Of a stretch of DNA of 64,000 nt, positions 46,001-64,000 are shown piece after piece. Source of the stretch: Convolutriloba macropyga (lineage: Eukaryota); assembly GCF_964194025.1 (NCBI RefSeq), contig NC_134480.1, positions 41,788,001-41,852,000 of the forward strand. Reading direction: 5' to 3'. Positions within the stretch are counted from its first letter, which is position 1. Every line of letters starts with the position of its first letter. Below the pieces are notes generated by a model. That model saw nothing but the letters and a program-made list of their open reading frames with translations, had not been told where the DNA came from and ran no database searches. The position numbers and the translations under genes are program-made.

Positions 46001-46902
46001 GCGCAAGTTTTTTATTAACCTTCACTGCCCAAAGTTATAAAGCAAAGTGGACCACTTCCTGCCAAATGAAAATCTGTTTAGCTTTATGGTTTTTGATTTC
46101 GTTCTCGTATTTCTGAAATTTTATTTTTGCAAACGGAAACAAACTTCTGCATGCGATTGATGGTTATGGTCGAGCTTTTAGGTTTCCAAAATTCAATTTA
46201 TGTAGAGCGGTTGGAATCTTAAAAATTTCAAATAGCTATGATTGCTTTTTCCGTCCGTTATTTTTAACAATCAACTGTCTGTATTCAGAATGATTTCAAC
46301 CGTCATTTGTTATTAGTTGTAGTAGCCGAAGAAAAGATTTGCTTTCAGGATTTTTATTAGATTTCGATTAAAAGGATCTTTAGGTATCACATTAACCATC
46401 ACCAGTATTTTTTGGATTTTTTTCAGGAGTTGACCATAATCTGTTAGTTTTTTTGCTTCATAAAGAAAATACAATAAATAAAATAAAACTTGTCATTAAT
46501 AGCTGCCGATAACTATCAATCTAGCGTTAGGTAGACTGAATTGTAACAATTGATTTATAAATGTGATCATGCTATAAAGTTTGAAAAAAATGCTAATGTG
46601 CGGGTGTCCCGCCTCCTGCAGGTAAGTTTGACTATGTGTGTGTGATAGTGCTGCGATTGGCCGTCAGAGAACCCAGCTAATCAGCTTGCATTGCTGATGC
46701 CAGTGCTGGTGGTTCCTACAAAAACGTGGCTTAATTGTTCTTGTTGGCACTATATGCCTGGTGTGCCTTTTGCCCACTGTTGTTCGTGGGCATCAATTAA
46801 CATTTTGCGTGTGATTTTTTTTATCAAATCTTTTTTTGCTACTGTGACAAATAACCAATCCTGAACCTTCTTTTGCACAGCAAAATGAACATCATGCTTT
46901 GG

Positions 46903-47014
46903 AGTAGTATATCGTGAGCAAGAGTGGGGCGGGTAAAAGGAAGTACCTATGTATTAACATTAGGTATAGCCTCCTACCCTCCAATTTCCAAAGATGTACC
47001 TCCTCACAGCATGA
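46903..47014 (+). repeat. Left terminal inverted repeat of the Polinton
   Basis: AGTAGTATATCGTGAGCAAGAGTGGGG...CCTCACAGCATGA is the reverse complement of 63599-63716, apart from the G-run and one substitution. Confidence 0.97.
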
Positions 47015-47320
47015 TACTCAAGCTGTTCACACGAAAGGGATTAGCAGGATAATCCTTTAATAATAAATTAGGATGACTCATTTACAGTTACGTACGACTT
47101 TTCAAAAATGCACCTCACAGCATGACACCAAGCTGTTCACACAAAGGGGGATTAGCTAGGTAATGTTTTAATATTAAAATAGATAGGATGACTCATTTAC
47201 ACTTATGTACAGCTTACGTGATTTTCAAAAATGTACCTCACAGTATGATACCCAAGCCCTTCACACTAAAGGGATTAGCAAGATAGTGTCTTAACAACAA
47301 ACTAATAAGGTCATTTACCC
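46985..47320 (+). repeat. Left subterminal tandem array, 3 units of ~110-125 bp
   Basis: Core CCTCACAG(C/T)ATGA..C.CAAGC..TTCACAC.AA.GGGATTAGC recurs near 47002, 47113 and 47236. Confidence 0.9.
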
Positions 47321-47743
47321 ACCCATTCCCATATTAACAAAAAAGTACAATTTTTTATTTTTGGTTTTTACAGATTTTTTTTACAATTTTTTAAATCAAT
47401 TTTTTGTTTAAAATAGTGTTTCACTGTATCGTTTTAAACTGAAGTTCCAATTTTCCGATTTCAGAAAAATTTGTATTATTGTTTTGAAAATGTCTATTTC
47501 TTAATTTTTTTTAGCCAATCACATAATCTGTCAGATCTGATTTTGGAATGTTGATGCTGAAAAACATTTACGATTCATTTTGTCTTTTTTCTTGGTTGAA
47601 CATAAGTAGCCTAAAAAAAATGCAAAATACTCCAATTCTTCCTTTACTTCCTTCAACATCTTTTCTTTCTACTTCATTCAGATTTAGATTACGCTCCTAT
47701 CACGGAAGCATCAATATTTAAAACGGTAGTAACCGATAACAAT

Positions 47744-48199
47744 TTGGAATTATCTTTTGAGGTGGATTGCACTAGAGTAACAATTAAAACTCAGACAACT
47801 AGCTTGACACTTCCGAAGGATTTGTGGAGAACTTTAGAGGCAGCTAGACATCATAACCTCCACCTAGCCGTAGAAAAAGTCAACAATTCACTGCTTTCTC
47901 TCCAAACTTATTTTCAAACCATTGAAAGAATTCGAAAAGAACAAGGGTTTCACCCGTTGAAAGACAGCAAAGGAATTATGTTCCCGTACTCTCGTGACAT
48001 AAATCACTACGGTGTTTGGTGGGTAGAAGACATGTTCTCCAAGCATGCGGACTCATTTTCTAAAAAACCAGAAGCCTTCAATCTGCCCGATTTCAAAGAC
48101 CTTATTCTTCCTCCGATCCAGGAAACTGACAATGAAGAGACTCAATCATCTCATCAAAATATTCCTTTCTCGAACTATAGGTGTTCTCCAATAGAATAG
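47744..48199 (+). CDS. Polinton accessory protein, unknown function (true start probably upstream or spliced)
   Basis: 151-aa ORF inside the element. The frame stays open upstream of the TTG start to a pyrimidine-rich CAG acceptor-like site near 47680. Confidence 0.55.
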   Translation: MELSFEVDCTRVTIKTQTTSLTLPKDLWRTLEAARHHNLHLAVEKVNNSLLSLQTYFQTIERIRKEQGFHPLKDSKGIMFPYSRDINHYGVWWVEDMFSKHADSFSKKPEAFNLPDFKDLILPPIQETDNEETQSSHQNIPFSNYRCSPIE

Positions 48200-48539: not shown

Positions 48540-49136
48540 ATGGATCAAAGCTCAGTCTCACCTAATTCCAAAAAACAATTCTCCTTTCCCATCCGCAAAC
48601 GAAATTACAAGGGAAAACCAGTTGTTCCCTCTCCACAGTTTGATTACCACAATGAGAGCATGTTTTCTCTATTTAAAGACATGAACGATAAAAAAGACAA
48701 CACCGACTCAAAACCAATTGAGGAGCACGATGGAAGAAACAACTGTTGGTCCTTTCAAGAATACGGTAACCGGAAAGTTCAAATCAGCATCCCAGAGGAA
48801 ACAATCAACACAAACTCTAACTGGACTCACTTGAAAGTATTTCGCGAAAATGTGGAAACTGAGTATATTCTGCATCAATTTCTGATGCTATCGGCCAGAG
48901 AATTGAAGCTTGTTATTGAAAAGATACCTGAGATGATAAAAGAAGCACTACTGTTCGAACCTACTGTAGGTACTGCGAAGCTGGTGATTGACGAAACTGT
49001 GTTCCAACCAACTGATGTTAAGGAAAAAGCAAAATTTGATGTGTTCTGGGAGGTGAGTGAGACTGCTCGACGGAAGGTGTGTGTGACTAGAATATTTTTC
49101 CAAGATGATCCGAATCGATGTGATGTTTGTCTTTAG
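48540..49136 (+). CDS. Polinton accessory protein, possibly PC4-like ssDNA-binding fold
   Basis: ATG at 48540 (MDQSS). Segment RKVQIS...THLKVFRE...FLMLSARELKLVIEKIPEM has a beta-beta-beta-helix pattern resembling PC4, judged by eye only. TATA-like, E-box and ATF-like motifs lie upstream at 48237-48325. Confidence 0.6.
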   Translation: MDQSSVSPNSKKQFSFPIRKRNYKGKPVVPSPQFDYHNESMFSLFKDMNDKKDNTDSKPIEEHDGRNNCWSFQEYGNRKVQISIPEETINTNSNWTHLKVFRENVETEYILHQFLMLSARELKLVIEKIPEMIKEALLFEPTVGTAKLVIDETVFQPTDVKEKAKFDVFWEVSETARRKVCVTRIFFQDDPNRCDVCL

Positions 49137-51309: not shown

Positions 51310-52219
51310 AATCAAATTGCAGAAGTTGTATAAAGGGAAGGGACCAGCAGCTTTCGGTTCTATCAATAACCTAACAAAATCAAGTGGAATCAGTCGCGAG
51401 AGAGTTACTGAATTTTTACAGTCAAAAGACTCTTATACGAAGTACAAAGGAATCAGACGAAAATTTCCCCGGCTAAATGCGCATGCTCGCTATATTGATG
51501 AGATTTGGTGCTTGGATCTTGCTCAAATGGATAAACTATCACAATGGAACCGAGGTATCAACTTTTTACTCGTTACTGTCGATGTTTTTTCTCGATTCTT
51601 GCGAGTAGAAGCATTACGAAGCAAAGGAGCAGAGGGTGTGAAAGCAGCTTTTATCAAAATGTGTTCGAAAAAGAACGAACTCAATTTCCCAAAAACGTTA
51701 TGGCTAGATCAAGGAAAAGAGTTTTTTGGAGATATGGCCAATTTCTGCGAGGATGTGGGAGTCAAATATTTCACACTTATAGTGAAACAAAAGTAGCTTT
51801 TGGCGAGAGAGCTATACGAACCCTGAAAAACTTAATTTACCGCTACCTGGAGGAAAAGGACACATTATCTTACATCAAAGACCTGCAAATGTTTGTTGAC
51901 ATCATCAACTCTAGAATAAATCGAAGTTTTTGGTTTGGCACCCAAAAATGTAGTCAATGCTGACTTTTTGACTGCCATGTACAAGCGGATGAAACTACGA
52001 AAAAACAAGATGCCTAATTTTAAAGTAGGTGATAAAGTTCGGATGGTATTAGTAGGGCACAATTTTCAAAAAGGATATAAGCCTCACTATACACATGAAA
52101 TTTTCCTAATTCGAAAAATAAACACTTTGGCTCCTTTCCCGACTTACTTTGTTGTTGATCAGAAAGGAGACAACATTGATGGAATCTTTTACGAGCAAGA
52201 ATTGTCAAAAGTTAAATAA
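51275..52219 (+). pseudogene. Retroviral-like (rve, DDE) integrase, two frameshifts
   Basis: WCLDLAQM (D), VDVFSRF, LWLDQGKEF (D), FGERAIRTLK (E) and C-terminal FKVGDKVR...FYEQEL are spread over ORFs 51275-51796, 51544-51963 and 51935-52219. Shifts are near 51768 and 51930. Confidence 0.93.
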
Positions 52220-52246
52220 TCATTTTTCAATTAGTCGCGCTAGAAA

Positions 52247-52586
52247 ATGGACGGTTACAATCTGCCATATTTTAAAGGAGTTCCTCGTCAGAGAGGGCGT
52301 GGTTTTGGAGCCTTGGCTAGAACAGTCGCTAGAACAACTCTCCCAATTCTCAAGAAATACGTTTTACCTGCAGCAAAAAAAAATTGGACGAGATGTAATC
52401 GAGTCCGCCATTCCCGAAATTGGAGGTGTTTTATCAGGACAGACTTCAATTAAAAAAGCAGTAAAGAAGACTGCGAAATCAACAATACGAAAACAAGTTG
52501 GTGGTGGTATGAAAAAGAGGAAAAACACGAGACAAAGTATCGTTCGGCAAAAAATTCGGAAAGACTTTCTGAAGAACCTTGACTAA
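52247..52586 (+). pseudogene. Small basic/amphipathic virion protein (QRGxG type), frameshifted
   Basis: MDGYNLPYFKGVPRQRGRGFGALARTVARTTLPILKK... continues in the other frame after the A-run near 52375-52383 as KIGRDVIESAIPEIGGVLSG...QVGGGMKKRK. Confidence 0.75.
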
Positions 52587-60070: not shown

Positions 60071-60649
60071 TTAAAAGAGTTTTCGACTGATCGATTTTTT
60101 AGCAGGGATGACAAACTCAATGTCTTCATCGTTGGAATCAGCTTCTGATTTATCCAACTTCTTTTGACGTTTACGTGGAGCCTCCAAAACTGAGGAGCTG
60201 ATTTCATTTGGAGATGAAGGAGGTGGCGTCACAGTTAACGGAGAGTCATTGTCAAGTTGCCACAAAGCTTCATAAAGTTCGCGGTCCCTAAGGTGTCCTA
60301 ACTGATATTCGTACATAGGTTGGCAGCTCAGTTCGTAATCCATAAATTTCTCTCGAACTTGTTTTGGTACGTCAGTTAGGTTCTCACAATCTTTTACCTG
60401 GAGTCCTACTGGTTCCAGTTCAACTGAGTGGAAGTCAGGAACAACTTCGCTGTGAGGTAATACGAATTCACCTCCGTGCTTTATCATACTAAAGTCTTCG
60501 AAAATTGCGCGAGGCAGAATAGTACGTTCCTCGGCTAGCCATTGCCCATTTACTTTATTTTCGATTACCAGAACCACATCGTTCGAATAAATGGGAAGAA
60601 AAAGATTGATTCGCTGATTCGTTCCCTTTGATACAATTTTGAGGTCCAT
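60071..60649 (-). CDS. Polinton accessory protein with NLS-like PRKRQKK and acidic tail
   Basis: Intact 192-aa ATG ORF. A splice-acceptor-like TTGTTTGTAG lies 1 nt before the ATG. Confidence 0.7.
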   Translation of the reverse strand: MDLKIVSKGTNQRINLFLPIYSNDVVLVIENKVNGQWLAEERTILPRAIFEDFSMIKHGGEFVLPHSEVVPDFHSVELEPVGLQVKDCENLTDVPKQVREKFMDYELSCQPMYEYQLGHLRDRELYEALWQLDNDSPLTVTPPPSSPNEISSSVLEAPRKRQKKLDKSEADSNDEDIEFVIPAKKSISRKLF

Positions 60650-60689
60650 TCTACAAACAATCTTAATCTTACCTCCCGAAAGCAGATTT

Positions 60690-60975
60690 TATTAAAAGAA
60701 AACTTACCTGTTTGTTTTTGGATTTAGAGGTGATGTGAATGGTTGCGGTATCTACTGTTGAGGGGAAGTTTTGGCAGGCTAAAATGGTTCAGTTTAAATA
60801 CAGGAACAGACTAAGATTTCTATTAGTTAAATTTGAGCAAACTTACCTGTTTGTATTTGGATTTAGATGTGAAGTGAAGTGTTGCGTTATCTACTGTTGG
60901 GGGAAATTTTGGCTGGCTAAAATGGTTCAGTTTTAATACAGGAACAAATCAAGGTTTCTATTAGTTAAATTTGTT
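60690..60975. repeat. Tandem duplication of ~138 bp containing a minus-strand splice donor CAG|GTAAGT
   Basis: AACTTACCTGTTTGT.TTTGGATTTAGA...GCTAAAATGGTTCAGTTT.AATACAGGAACA occurs at ~60701 and ~60840. Confidence 0.85.
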
Positions 60976-61005
60976 TGCTTACCCGCTTCAACACTGCAAG
61001 TGTTC

Positions 61006-61239: not shown

Positions 61240-61932
61240 GAATGAGTAATCCAAACTAATTTGTTATTGAGGGTTCATATTGCTAATCCTTTTCGTGAGA
61301 ACAGCTTGGGTATCAAGCTGTGAGGAACATCTTTGGTAATTGACATTAGTAAAGGGTAATATTGTAAGGGGTAAATGACCTTACTGGATTGTTAAGAGAT
61401 TATCTTGCTAATCCTTTTCGTGAGAACAGCTTGGGTATCGTGCTGTGAGGTACATTATTGTCGATTGACATTTTCAAAGTGTAATATGTGAAAAGGTAAA
61501 TGTCCTTACTAAGAGATTATCTTGCTAATCCTTTTCGTGAGAACAGCTTGGGTATCATGCTGTGAGGAATATCTTTGGAGTTTGACATTAGTAAAGTGTA
61601 GTATGAGAAAAGGTAAATGACCGTACTGATTTGTTGTTAAGGCACTATCTTGCTAATCCCCCTCGTGTGAACAGCTTGGGTATCGTGCTGTGAGGTACAT
61701 TATTGGAATTTGAAATTAGAAAAGTGTAATAAGGGAAAAGGTAAATGACCTTATTATTTTGTTGCTAAGTCATTTTCTTGCTGATCCCTTTCGTGTGAAC
61801 AGCGTGGGTATCATGTTGTGAGCTACGTCTTTGGCATTAGTAAAGTGTAATATGAGAAAAGGTAAATGACCGAAATAGATTGTTAGGGTTTTTGCTCATC
61901 TCTGTCGTGAGAATAAATTGAGTTTCATGCTG
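61240..61932 (-). repeat. Right subterminal tandem array, 5 full units plus 1 degenerate unit of ~117-128 bp, inverted relative to the left array
   Basis: TTGCTAATCC.TTTCGTG.GAACAGCTTGGGTATC.TGCTGTGAGG recurs near 61280, 61405, 61522, 61650 and 61778, and in degenerate form at 61892. Confidence 0.93.
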
Positions 61933-62196
61933 GTTCGAAATGAGTAGTTATTAAGAAATTTAACTTCTTTTCTTTTTTACAAATGAAACTTTATTCAGCT
62001 GCGGGAAACAGTTTTTTCCTTTGTTAAATTTGAGACTCAAATAAGTTGTAAATTACACTTAATTCTCTAAATTTTTCATCCGGGGTTCGAGTCCGGGTGG
62101 GATCCTCTTTTGCTAAAACTGATTTTGTGTTAATAAAATAGGATGTCATTACGTTATGATCCATTATAAATATGGTTAAAATCTAAGTCATCTCAA

Positions 62197-62338
62197 GTAC
62201 CAATGGTTCAGTGGTAGTATCTGGGACTCCCATCCGGGGGTCCCGGGTTCGATCCCGGGTGGGGTCCTCTTGTGTTGTTCAATGGTTTCTCGGCTGAAAA
62301 TCTGGTGTACATTGACGAGCATTAGCCGGCGGGGTTTT
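62197..62338 (+). ncRNA. tRNA-Gly-derived RNA polymerase III transcription unit (not a canonical tRNA)
   Basis: A box TGGTTCAGTGG (62204-62214), B box GGTTCGATCC (62246-62255), CTCCCA anticodon-loop-like segment, TATAAATA at 62165-62172, first T4 run at 62335-62338. The acceptor stem pairs only 4/7. Confidence 0.65.
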
Positions 62339-62947
62339 CTATATAGAGTCTGATAGTTGCATGGGTATATGTGATAGGTAAGACGGGAGTTGACACATAG
62401 CGCATATCACATATACTCTAAGTGGCTTTCAGACTCGCAGAAAACCTTCAGCCATCAATGTCCAGAAGCCCTAATGAAACTATTTTCTTTCCATTAAAAA
62501 ACCCATTTTTTCCGAATTTTGACACCTATTGTACCCCCACATCATCCTTAGAATGATACCATTCATCAGGAATAAACTGTATTCAACAACTAACATCTAT
62601 TTTGAAAAAAAAATTGAAACTCTAAACTTAAAACACAAATGTATTCAGATCTAAATTATGCAGATTTCATTTTCGAATACACCAAACTGCTGCGAGTATG
62701 TCGAAAGACTTTTGAAATATAAAACAAATACTCACTTGTAAGTTTTCCCAATTTTCATTTTCGACTACACTTAGTAGTTTGATTATTGTCAGATATTTTT
62801 TTTATTCTGTACAGATAATCAAATCACTAGGGGTAAATCGAACCAGCGACTTTGGGGTTTGTTTATGTTTTTGGTTTTTTGTGAACCGTTTGTTTCTTTT
62901 GTTATTTTTTTTTGTTTTTTTTTTAGTTTTTTTATTTTTAGGCTTAT

Positions 62948-63172
62948 CTAAATCAGATCCAGATCAGCTAAGTTTTCGTTGAGCACCTTGCAAATGGCCT
63001 TGCAGTTTCTATATTTAACTGGTCGGCCAGTGCGTTTGGCTACTTGTTTGCGAACACCGGGACGGCCCGCGGTTCTCTTAGCCATTTGAGGCCTGCTAAA
63101 TTTGGGAGTGGGAGGAGAACCTTCCCAGTCAGAGACTGGTTCCTCCTTGATAGGTGTAGTTGGCAAACTCAT
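62948..63172 (-). CDS. Small basic protein (74 aa) with duplicated AKRT(A)GRP motifs
   Basis: ATG 63172 MSLPTTPIKEE...QMAKRTAGRPGVRKQVAKRTGRPVK. It is a GC-richer island in AT-rich flanks, with a TATA/Inr promoter upstream. Confidence 0.7.
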   Translation of the reverse strand: MSLPTTPIKEEPVSDWEGSPPTPKFSRPQMAKRTAGRPGVRKQVAKRTGRPVKYRNCKAICKVLNENLADLDLI

Positions 63173-63215
63173 TTTTAGCAAAAATTCAACAACAATTTTG
63201 TTAACAAAAGTACCA

Positions 63216-63250
63216 GAATGAAAAGTGATTTTGTGTTGCAGCTATTTATA
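63216..63250 (-). promoter_or_regulatory. TATA box plus initiator for the small basic ORF
   Basis: Minus-strand TATAAATA (63250-63243) and TCATTC Inr-like motif (63221-63216) ~30 nt downstream, ~45 nt before the ATG. Confidence 0.6.
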
Positions 63251-63598
63251 CTCATTTCAAATACACAAGTGTGCATGGATTAATGCTCGGAGATTAACTC
63301 ACACCAAAACTTTTACATTTTTAACCAAATTCTCACCCCCACACAGTATGAGCCATCTATCATAACAGTATGTCATTTATTAACACCCACACAAAAATGA
63401 ACCATTCAATAACTTTTAATTAAAACACACTTTTTATCTATATGAGTTTCTCATCTTAGTTCATTTAAATCACTACAAGCACTTAATCCCCTAATGACTA
63501 AAACAATATTTTCTCACGCTACAGTAAAACTTAATCCTTTGTAAACAAAATATTCACAAGAAAAAATGGACAAAAGTGACTACGAAAATACCGGTGAG

Positions 63599-63716
63599 TC
63601 ATGCTGTGAGGAGGTACATCTTTGGAAATTGGAGGGTAGGAGCCTATACCTAATGTTAATACATAGGTACTTCCTTTTACCCCCCCCCCCCCCACTCTTG
63701 CTCACGATATACTACT
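63599..63716 (-). repeat. Right terminal inverted repeat of the Polinton
   Basis: TCATGCTGTGAGGAGGTAC...CACTCTTGCTCACGATATACTACT, followed directly by the TSD CTTTGG. Confidence 0.97.
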
Positions 63717-64000
63717 CTTTGGTTTTAACAAAGTTGACCGTTTTGATTATTTCACGTGCTCCTGAAAGAACTTGTAAAAAAGGACTAATTATTGCATGTG
63801 AATAAGTGTGAATAGGCATTTAGAAAATACTAACAGATTAGAAAATTGAAAGTGATACGTTGATAGAAATAGCTCACTGCGTATAATGTAAATATCAACC
63901 TAAAATTTCTTCTTATTGCATTTTTAGGAGTTAGGGTATTGTAAAGTGTCAACTTTTTGATGTTCTTGATAAGTGTTGCAAATGTGTTTGTCGTTGTATT

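What the first reader, a model, noticed from the sequence alone, without database searches (positions are those of the whole stretch)
62948..63250. Small viral protein with histone H3-tail-like and AT-hook-like motifs
Seen: AKRTAGRPGVRKQVAKR aligns by eye with H3 residues 7-23 ARKSTGGKAPRKQLATK (TAGR/TGGK, RKQVA/RKQLA). The unit Q(M/V)AKRT(A)GRP is duplicated, and KRTGRPVK resembles the AT-hook core RGRP. The N-terminus has a SUMO consensus IKEE and proline-directed sites TP, SP and TPK. It has its own TATA/Inr and sits at the genome end. Known: viral histone mimics exist (influenza NS1, adenovirus protein VII). Inference: an early chromatin-modulating or anti-silencing protein paired with the Pol III RNA.
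Basis: partly seen in the sequence, partly recalled or inferred. Interest (0 to 1): 0.7.

Follow-up and report, generated by a model that had tools for sequence, protein, structure and literature searches.

The report
Polinton microprotein with import/export signals
A virus-like jumping element in an animal genome carries a real, conserved 74-amino-acid accessory gene whose resemblance to the histone H3 tail is only weak and partial, and whose product more likely works as a small adaptor that shuttles in and out of the nucleus.

Summary
The ORF (62948-63172, minus strand) is a real gene at the right end of a 16.8-kb Polinton. It has a TATA box at -31, an initiator and a poly(A) signal. dN/dS is about 0.2 between two subfamilies, and a third, distant subfamily holds the same terminal position. 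No homologue was found outside this kind of element.

The H3 likeness is real but weak: 8 of 22 identities, p about 0.005-0.06 by profile, and no run of identity longer than 3 residues. The K9 and K14 equivalents are not lysines, and RKQVA becomes RIQKA in the sister subfamily. The AT-hook reading fails: there is no RGRP, and the proline of the second GRP is absent from the other A copies.

What is conserved is SPPTPKF-x-x-PQ-x-x-KRTGG, a SUMO-type site and a bipartite basic signal (two subfamilies), and a C-terminal helix with class-1a export-signal spacing (15 of 18 sequences). Best reading (about 0.4): a phospho-regulated shuttling adaptor, partner unknown. An H3-tail decoy remains possible (about 0.2). 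The neighbouring tRNA-like unit usually accompanies the gene, but not always.

The parts
62948..63172 (-). 74-aa accessory ORF (stop included)
   Evidence: dN/dS 0.18-0.29 between subfamilies
63243..63250 (-). TATA box, 31 nt before the predicted start
   Evidence: sequence; TATAAA in 4 of 5 aligned A/B copies, less canonical in C
63216..63221 (-). initiator-like TCATTC
   Evidence: invariant in 8 of 8 aligned copies
62931..62936 (-). AATAAA poly(A) signal, 11 nt after the stop
   Evidence: sequence
63140..63151 (-). SUMO-type site, residues 8-11 (IKEE)
   Evidence: pattern kept in 12 of 12 A/B rows, absent in 5 of 5 C rows
63059..63130 (-). most conserved block, residues 15-38: DW..SPPTPKFS.PQ..KRT.G.P
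   Evidence: pN 0.08 against pS 0.85 for residues 15-28; A versus C, 18 codons: 7 identical, 9 synonymous, 2 changed
63023..63088 (-). basic stretch, residues 29-50: weak H3 5-26 likeness and bipartite NLS-like spacing
62951..63013 (-). C-terminal helix (54-70) with class-1a NES spacing L64-L68-L71-L73
   Evidence: pattern defined in PMC3442415
62197..62338 (+). tRNA-like Pol III-type unit (A box 62204-62214, B box 62246-62256, T run 62335-62338), converging on the ORF
   Evidence: sequence; 21 genomic matches, 19 beside an ORF copy; not called by ARAGORN or Rfam
61933..63598 (.). optional terminal cassette (tRNA-like unit plus ORF) between the subterminal repeat array and the TIR
   Evidence: absent from the close relatives whose output was visible; tandemly repeated on C9
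63599..63717 (.). right terminal inverted repeat ending in ACTACT
46902..47014 (.). left terminal inverted repeat of the same Polinton
   Evidence: integrase, A32 ATPase and PolB family matches inside

Best explanation
This is a real accessory gene of a Polinton, and its product is likely a disordered, phospho-regulated adaptor that shuttles between nucleus and cytoplasm. Shown: own promoter elements, purifying selection, three subfamilies at the same terminal position, a predicted disordered region (1-53) with one helix (54-70), and retained motif patterns. Inferred: the basic stretch (K32-R33 ... K46-R47-x-x-R50) is a nuclear import signal; the C-terminal helix is a CRM1-type export signal; the SPPTPKF block is a proline-directed kinase site and, with KRTGG, the grip for a host nuclear protein; SUMO on K9 would tune nuclear retention. 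The protein would be made early and would move or sequester a host factor. The partner is not identified.
For: dN/dS 0.18-0.29 in 24 A-versus-B pairs (Fisher p 7e-7 to 3e-4; pairs not independent). Four of five alternative frames give 1.2-1.7 and the antisense frame that shares third positions gives 0.38. Constraint is strongest on residues 15-28 and 54-74. The pattern Phi-x3-Phi-x2-Phi-x-Phi is present in 15 of 18 sequences: two of the three misses are truncated before the helix and one has a deletion. It is also present in subfamily C, whose tail sequence is very different. Position 70, between the hydrophobic residues, varies freely (D, G, N, E, Q, K). The B copy L009 reads LAGLDL, against LAGLDI in the PKI class-1a NES (PMC6488578 Table 1). 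The context (acidic spacers, disordered flank, protein end) is the one favoured in true NESs (PMC3442415 passages; model). Bipartite basic spacing from K32-R33 holds in 10 of 12 A/B rows, and the fixed K42/V44 to I42/K44 exchange keeps charge rather than an H3K18 position.
Against: NES patterns are common false positives: 3763 non-functional against 463 candidate segments in known cargoes (PMC6488578). The pattern arises in 7-12% of shuffles of the last 24 residues, and an amphipathic helix raises that rate. If the tails are aligned from the C-terminus, the C-subfamily pattern lies five residues upstream of the A/B pattern, so the two need not be one conserved signal. Other helix residues are as conserved as the four leucines. 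The bipartite basic signal is absent in 6 of 6 C rows and the SUMO site in 5 of 5. No localisation or binding data exist.
Confidence: 0.4

Rival explanations
1. H3-tail decoy: Q-x-A-K-R-T-G-G-x4-R imitates H3 5-21 with lysine and arginine exchanged, so it would occupy an H3K9/K14 writer or reader without being a normal substrate, and would blunt silencing.
For: All three subfamily profiles choose H3 residue 5 as best register; none of the other three core histone tails reaches p<0.05. Q29 and K32 are invariant in 17 rows; G35 and R41 are nearly so. Adenovirus protein VII's accepted mimic AKKRS also has the order K-R-S (PMC6028506 passage).
Against: Longest exact match to H3 is 3 residues, below the 4 of NS1 and G9a and the 5 used by HiScan. 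The R-K context of K9, K14 and K18 are not kept. Pairwise likeness is lost in B and C (p 0.11-0.79). The element's core protein scores as high. Neither the protein nor its profile finds a histone among 177,635 PDB sequences at E<=10. An H3-tail search of the genome did not return the ORF (14 candidates scored).
Confidence: 0.2
2. Nucleosome tether: M30-x-x-R33-T34 is an arginine anchor for the H2A-H2B acidic patch, doubled in subfamily A, and holds the element or its proteins on chromosomes.
For: Same spacing as LANA M6/R9 and IE1 M483/R486/S487 (PMC9040877 passages). Hydrophobic-x-x-R-T at the first unit in 9 of 17 rows.
Against: The -3 residue is T or A in 4 of 5 C rows. Acidic-patch motifs are too variable in sequence to be diagnostic (PMC10606924 passages). 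It explains neither the SPPTPKF block nor the helix.
Confidence: 0.12
3. Virion core or cement protein cut after TGG by the element's own cysteine protease, releasing a basic peptide with an amphipathic helix.
For: Conserved G-G, basic middle part, and a C48/C5-like protease in the element (weak matches).
Against: The gene is missing from most family members (22 close DNA matches, against roughly 110 ATPase copies at 85% identity or more among 150 listed). It lies outside the virion block with its own terminal promoter. G35 or G36 is replaced in some open copies.
Confidence: 0.1
4. Rev-like RNA export adaptor: the basic stretch binds the neighbouring tRNA-like RNA or element transcripts, and the helix recruits CRM1.
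For: Basic region plus NES spacing; 19 of 21 tRNA-like copies adjoin the gene.
Against: Two tRNA-like copies have no ORF. An open B copy (C635) and all five C copies have no tRNA-like unit beside them. The basic stretch is not arginine-rich.
Confidence: 0.08
5. The C-terminal helix is an oligomerisation or partner-binding helix, and the motif resemblances (NES, H3) are coincidental features of a basic disordered protein.
For: Each motif is short and significant only at the 0.01-0.1 level.
Against: Several patterns survive divergence at dS about 0.65 and beyond.
Confidence: 0.1

Closest known systems
Adintovirus/Polinton motif-bearing accessory genes ('Oncoid', 'Adintoc'; PMC8502044, section 8 read)
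   Same: Small accessory ORF upstream of PolB, made of short linear motifs, in an animal Polinton.
   Different: No LxCxE and no paired CxxC; no sequence homologue found; optional within its own family.
Viral and cellular H3 mimics: influenza NS1 ARSK, G9a ARKT, adenovirus protein VII AKKRS (PMC6028506 passages)
   Same: Short basic S/T motif in a disordered segment; K-R-T order as in protein VII.
   Different: No 4-residue identity with H3; no conserved lysine in an R-K or G-K-x-P context; function untested.
Class-1a NES proteins: PKI, MVM NS2 (PMC6488578 Table 1); viral NES-plus-NLS proteins such as the VEEV capsid segment (PMC10674744, PMC3765696 passages)
   Same: Phi-x3-Phi-x2-Phi-x-Phi spacing at an exposed end; basic signal close by.
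   Different: No homology; import signal lies before the export signal; CRM1 binding not measured.
Acidic-patch binders KSHV LANA, HCMV IE1, foamy virus Gag (PMC9040877 passages)
   Same: Met three residues before Arg, followed by a hydroxyl residue.
   Different: Spacing kept in only 9 of 17 sequences; extra phospho-block and helix.

Membership tests
Polinton/Maverick accessory gene | Lies inside terminal inverted repeats with AGTAGT ends, with integrase, packaging ATPase and PolB | tested here: met
Polinton/Maverick accessory gene | Protein-level purifying selection | tested here: met
   dN/dS about 0.2; synonymous-rich block against subfamily C
H3-tail mimic (NS1/G9a type) | Exact 4-5-residue match to H3 around a modified lysine | tested here: not met
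   longest match 3 residues in 17 of 17 sequences; criteria
H3-tail mimic (NS1/G9a type) | The mimicked lysine is kept across homologues | tested here: not met
   K9 position R, K14 position P/T/L, K18 position K only in subfamily A (ungapped register); in the gapped register K32 matches K9 but lacks the preceding R
H3-tail mimic (NS1/G9a type) | Likeness to H3 beyond composition | tested here: inconclusive
   p 0.005-0.06 on 17 columns, 0.06-0.24 on 13 columns; pairwise significant only in A
H3-tail mimic (NS1/G9a type) | Modified by, or binds, an H3 writer or reader | not testable with these tools
   needs pull-down or enzyme assay
AT-hook | R-G-R-P core (definition recalled) | tested here: not met
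   0 of 17 sequences; P51 absent from the other A copies
CRM1-dependent class-1a NES | Phi-x3-Phi-x2-Phi-x-Phi spacing | tested here: met
   15 of 18 sequences
CRM1-dependent class-1a NES | Exposed, in or next to disorder | tested here: met
   single helix after 53 coil residues, pLDDT 64
CRM1-dependent class-1a NES | Same register in all subfamilies | tested here: inconclusive
   five-residue offset in C under end-anchored alignment
CRM1-dependent class-1a NES | CRM1 binding, leptomycin B sensitivity | not tested
   needs a bench assay; no CRM1 model was run
Bipartite classical NLS | Two basic residues, 10-12 spacer, 3 of 5 basic (definition recalled) | tested here: inconclusive
   10 of 12 A/B rows, 0 of 6 C rows
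Adintovirus Oncoid | LxCxE with CK2 site and paired CxxC | tested here: not met
   sequence against PMC8502044 section 8
Acidic-patch arginine-anchor protein | Hydrophobic residue at -3 and S/T at +1 of the anchor Arg | tested here: inconclusive
   9 of 17 rows

The most novel reading that the evidence does not exclude
A Polinton microprotein couples a lysine/arginine-exchanged, non-modifiable H3-tail decoy to a CRM1 export signal, so that it catches a host H3K9/K14 chromatin factor and carries it out of the nucleus. It travels in a swappable terminal cassette with a VA-RNA-like Pol III transcript: a two-part anti-silencing module in a transposon-virus.
Probability: 0.1. Interest if true: 0.75.

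Novelty: new member of a known kind. Interest (0 to 1): 0.38.

Why it matters
How animal Polintons deal with host silencing is little tested, and their small accessory genes are rarely annotated. This gene is shown to be under selection, has natural variants in three subfamilies that mark its important residues, and is short enough for direct peptide and reporter tests. If it exports a chromatin factor, or is a true H3 decoy, it would be such a mechanism in a Polinton; my full-text search for 'Polinton' with 'histone mimic' returned 0 papers. As it stands it is an orphan motif protein with a plausible but untested role.

Tried and rejected
Homologue searches: 5 proteins with the single sequence and 13 with the alignment, all ENA records of the same three subfamilies. 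The 1.84-billion library gave only a near-identical copy and one repetitive bacterial-type protein with no passing stretch, rejected. Pfam gave nothing above cut-off. PDB gave only chance hits at E 0.9-10, or none. Viral contigs gave nothing by alignment, by ATPase or by a motif pattern. A family profile on 45 loci from other Polinton ends gave a best E of 0.77. The protein atlas was unavailable.

Complex prediction of residues 12-43 with host H2A-H2B: no verdict, score 0.01, alignments not used; this is no evidence either way. Expression: no RNA holder listed; the four runs laid behaved like genomic DNA contigs. tRNA-like unit: no ARAGORN call in the window or in 29 loci, no Rfam family, and only 1 of 35 predicted pairs with a compensatory change.

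The H3 scores printed used a mis-cut H3 query and were discarded; they were redone. The profile search and the codon counts did not use that query. One search crashed and was redone. Part's output was cut, so L045-L048 were not seen there.

Literature: 'Polinton' + 'histone mimic' 0 papers. The Pol III search gave 9 papers, mostly general reviews, the NES/NLS search 4 unrelated papers; listings only. Supplements of PMC8502044, which hold the gene maps and 'Adintoc' sequences, were not read and could contain a similar ORF. PDZ, Homer, 14-3-3, USP7 and Fbw7 motifs were considered from recall and fit only partly.

Full report
Setting. The ORF lies in a 16.8-kb Polinton bounded by inverted repeats at 46902-47014 and 63599-63717. 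The element encodes an integrase and an A32-type ATPase (both above Pfam cut-off), a zinc-finger-PolB and a C48/C5-like protease (weak matches); several core genes are split across frames. The 74-aa ORF starts 545 bp inside the right end and points inwards. A TATA box lies 31 nt before a TCATTC initiator, and AATAAA follows the stop by 11 nt.

It is a real gene. The genome search gave 36 matches that fall into three subfamilies. Subfamily A has 8 full-length open copies at 89-100% identity. Subfamily B has about 14 copies at 55-75%, ten or so in a decaying tandem array on C9. Subfamily C has 5 copies, about 95 aa when whole (P0010), beside a more distant PolB and again about 600 bp inside a terminus in the four C11 and C12 copies. 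In 24 A-versus-B pairs dN/dS is 0.18-0.29 (p 7e-7 to 3e-4; pairs not independent), against 1.2-1.7 in four other frames and 0.38 in the antisense frame that shares third positions. Within A, and between L009 and the C9 copies, the ratio is not distinguishable from neutral, as expected after insertion. Between A and C an 18-codon block has 7 identical, 9 synonymous and 2 changed codons. The initiator is invariant in 8 of 8 aligned copies. No relative outside these subfamilies was found.

It is optional. Roughly 110 of 150 listed ATPase matches are 85% identical or more (my count), but only 22 places match the ORF region over most of its length. The close relatives visible lack the 61933-63598 cassette. 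The cassette also holds a tRNA-like unit with A box, B box and T run. It is not a dispersed host SINE: 21 matches, 19 beside an ORF copy, and it is better conserved than the ORF in B copies. Two copies on C4 have the unit without the ORF; an open B copy and the five C copies have the ORF without the unit. The pairing is common but not required.

H3 likeness. Against the host's own H3, residues 29-50 match H3 5-26 at 8 of 22 positions (p=0.003 full shuffle, 0.03 local shuffle). This ranks first among 4362 background pieces, tied with the element's basic core protein. Six of seven A sequences are significant at p<0.05; none of ten B or C sequences is at standard gap costs. Subfamily profiles all choose the register at H3 residue 5 (p 0.005, 0.06, 0.02; B+C 0.009) on a 17-column block chosen after the fact; on 13 columns p is 0.06-0.24. 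So a faint, H3-specific pattern exists. But no sequence shares more than 3 consecutive residues with H3, whereas NS1 and G9a mimics match four-residue H3 motifs (PMC6028506, passages) and HiScan asks for five identities (PMC11738798, passages). The K9 position is R, the K14 position is P, T or L, and the K18 position is K only in A: RKQVA is fixed as RIQKA or RVQKA in B. The stretch is less constrained (pN 0.18) than residues 15-28 (0.08) or 54-74 (0.05). It cannot be an ordinary substrate mimic; it could still be a non-modifiable decoy (inference).

AT-hook. RGRP occurs in 0 of 17 sequences. The proline of the second GRP is absent from the other six A copies (one B copy, L009, has it), and 4 of 4 public runs read alanine there at full depth. 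Rejected.

What selection keeps. (1) A SUMO-type site, IKEE/VKDE/VKNE, in 12 of 12 A/B rows and in no C row. (2) SPPTPKFS-x-PQ-x-x-KRTGG in all three subfamilies, with proline-directed sites. (3) Two basic clusters with bipartite NLS spacing in 10 of 12 A/B rows; the K42/V44 to I42/K44 exchange keeps charge. (4) One helix, residues 54-70, in an otherwise disordered model (pLDDT 64), with Phi-x3-Phi-x2-Phi-x-Phi spacing in 15 of 18 sequences, including C. This is the prevalent pattern of true export signals, which favour acidic spacers and disordered flanks (PMC3442415, passages); the B copy's LAGLDL recalls PKI's LAGLDI (PMC6488578, Table 1). Against this: the pattern appears in 7-12% of shuffled tails, false positives outnumber candidate signals about eight to one, and the C pattern is offset by five residues when the tails are aligned from the end.

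Mechanism. I commit to an early, phospho- and SUMO-regulated shuttling adaptor that grips an unidentified host nuclear protein through the SPPTPKF-KRTGG block (0.4). Gene status, motif retention and predicted disorder are shown; import, export, modification and partner binding are inferred. Rivals: H3-tail decoy (0.2); acidic-patch tether with the Met-x-x-Arg-Thr spacing of LANA and IE1 (0.12; PMC9040877, passages; 9 of 17 rows); protease-cut core protein (0.1); plain oligomerisation helix (0.1); Rev-like RNA adaptor (0.08). The first two are compatible, and their union is the novel case.

Comparison with what is known. It works like the motif-only accessory proteins found upstream of PolB in adintoviruses (PMC8502044, section 8 and passages) but lacks the Oncoid LxCxE. 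It fails the sequence tests for a classical H3 mimic and for an AT-hook. 'Polinton' with 'histone mimic' returned no paper; the supplements of PMC8502044 were not read.

Noticed in passing
window 62197-62338 (+): tRNA-like Pol III-type unit with an upstream TATAAAT and a 3' extension of about 65 nt before the T run, confined to Polinton ends and also found in a different Polinton family on C4; a partial second copy of the B-box arm lies at 62079-62112. Possibly a VA-RNA-like or tRNA-plus-hairpin transcript.
   Followed up: partly
window 60650-61000 (-): Repeated units of about 139 bp carry GT..AG splice-like donors and acceptors, and the 192-aa ORF starts right after an acceptor: a common spliced leader may serve the 192-aa ORF, PolB and other optional genes.
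   Followed up: no
window 60071-60649 (-): 192-aa ORF with no Pfam family above cut-off; its N-terminal 135 residues have many distant homologues (27-36% identity) in other Polinton-like elements of this genome (150 matches scored); it ends in RKLF, a cyclin-docking-like motif (recalled).
   Followed up: partly
G000:C9:47093400-47112000 (L028-L030): Tandem array of about ten decaying copies of the terminal cassette (repeat, tRNA-like unit, ORF, partial TIR) at one element end.
   Followed up: partly
window 52179-52586 (+): Basic core-protein-like ORF that scores as high against the H3 tail as the finding itself.
   Followed up: partly
L237:1537-2004 (-): A close relative carries a 155-aa ORF that looks by eye like a DEDD/MAEL-type gene, just downstream of the 192-aa ORF and absent there in the window's element.
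   Followed up: no
window 61257-61932 and 47002-47336: Arrays of subterminal repeats of about 125 bp at both ends, in inverted orientation; they flank the optional cassette and may mediate its gain, loss and tandem duplication.
   Followed up: partly
window 47978-48199 (+) and 48540-49136 (+): Two unannotated ORFs (73 and 198 aa) at the left end, candidates for further accessory genes.
   Followed up: no
L089:1480 onward (G000:C5:67541794-67545177): Divergent host H3 variant gene (138 aa) with changes in the tail.
   Followed up: no
G000:C11, C12 and C4 loci (L021-L026, L092-L095): Several elements appear as fold-back arrangements, with the same end at both sides.
   Followed up: no
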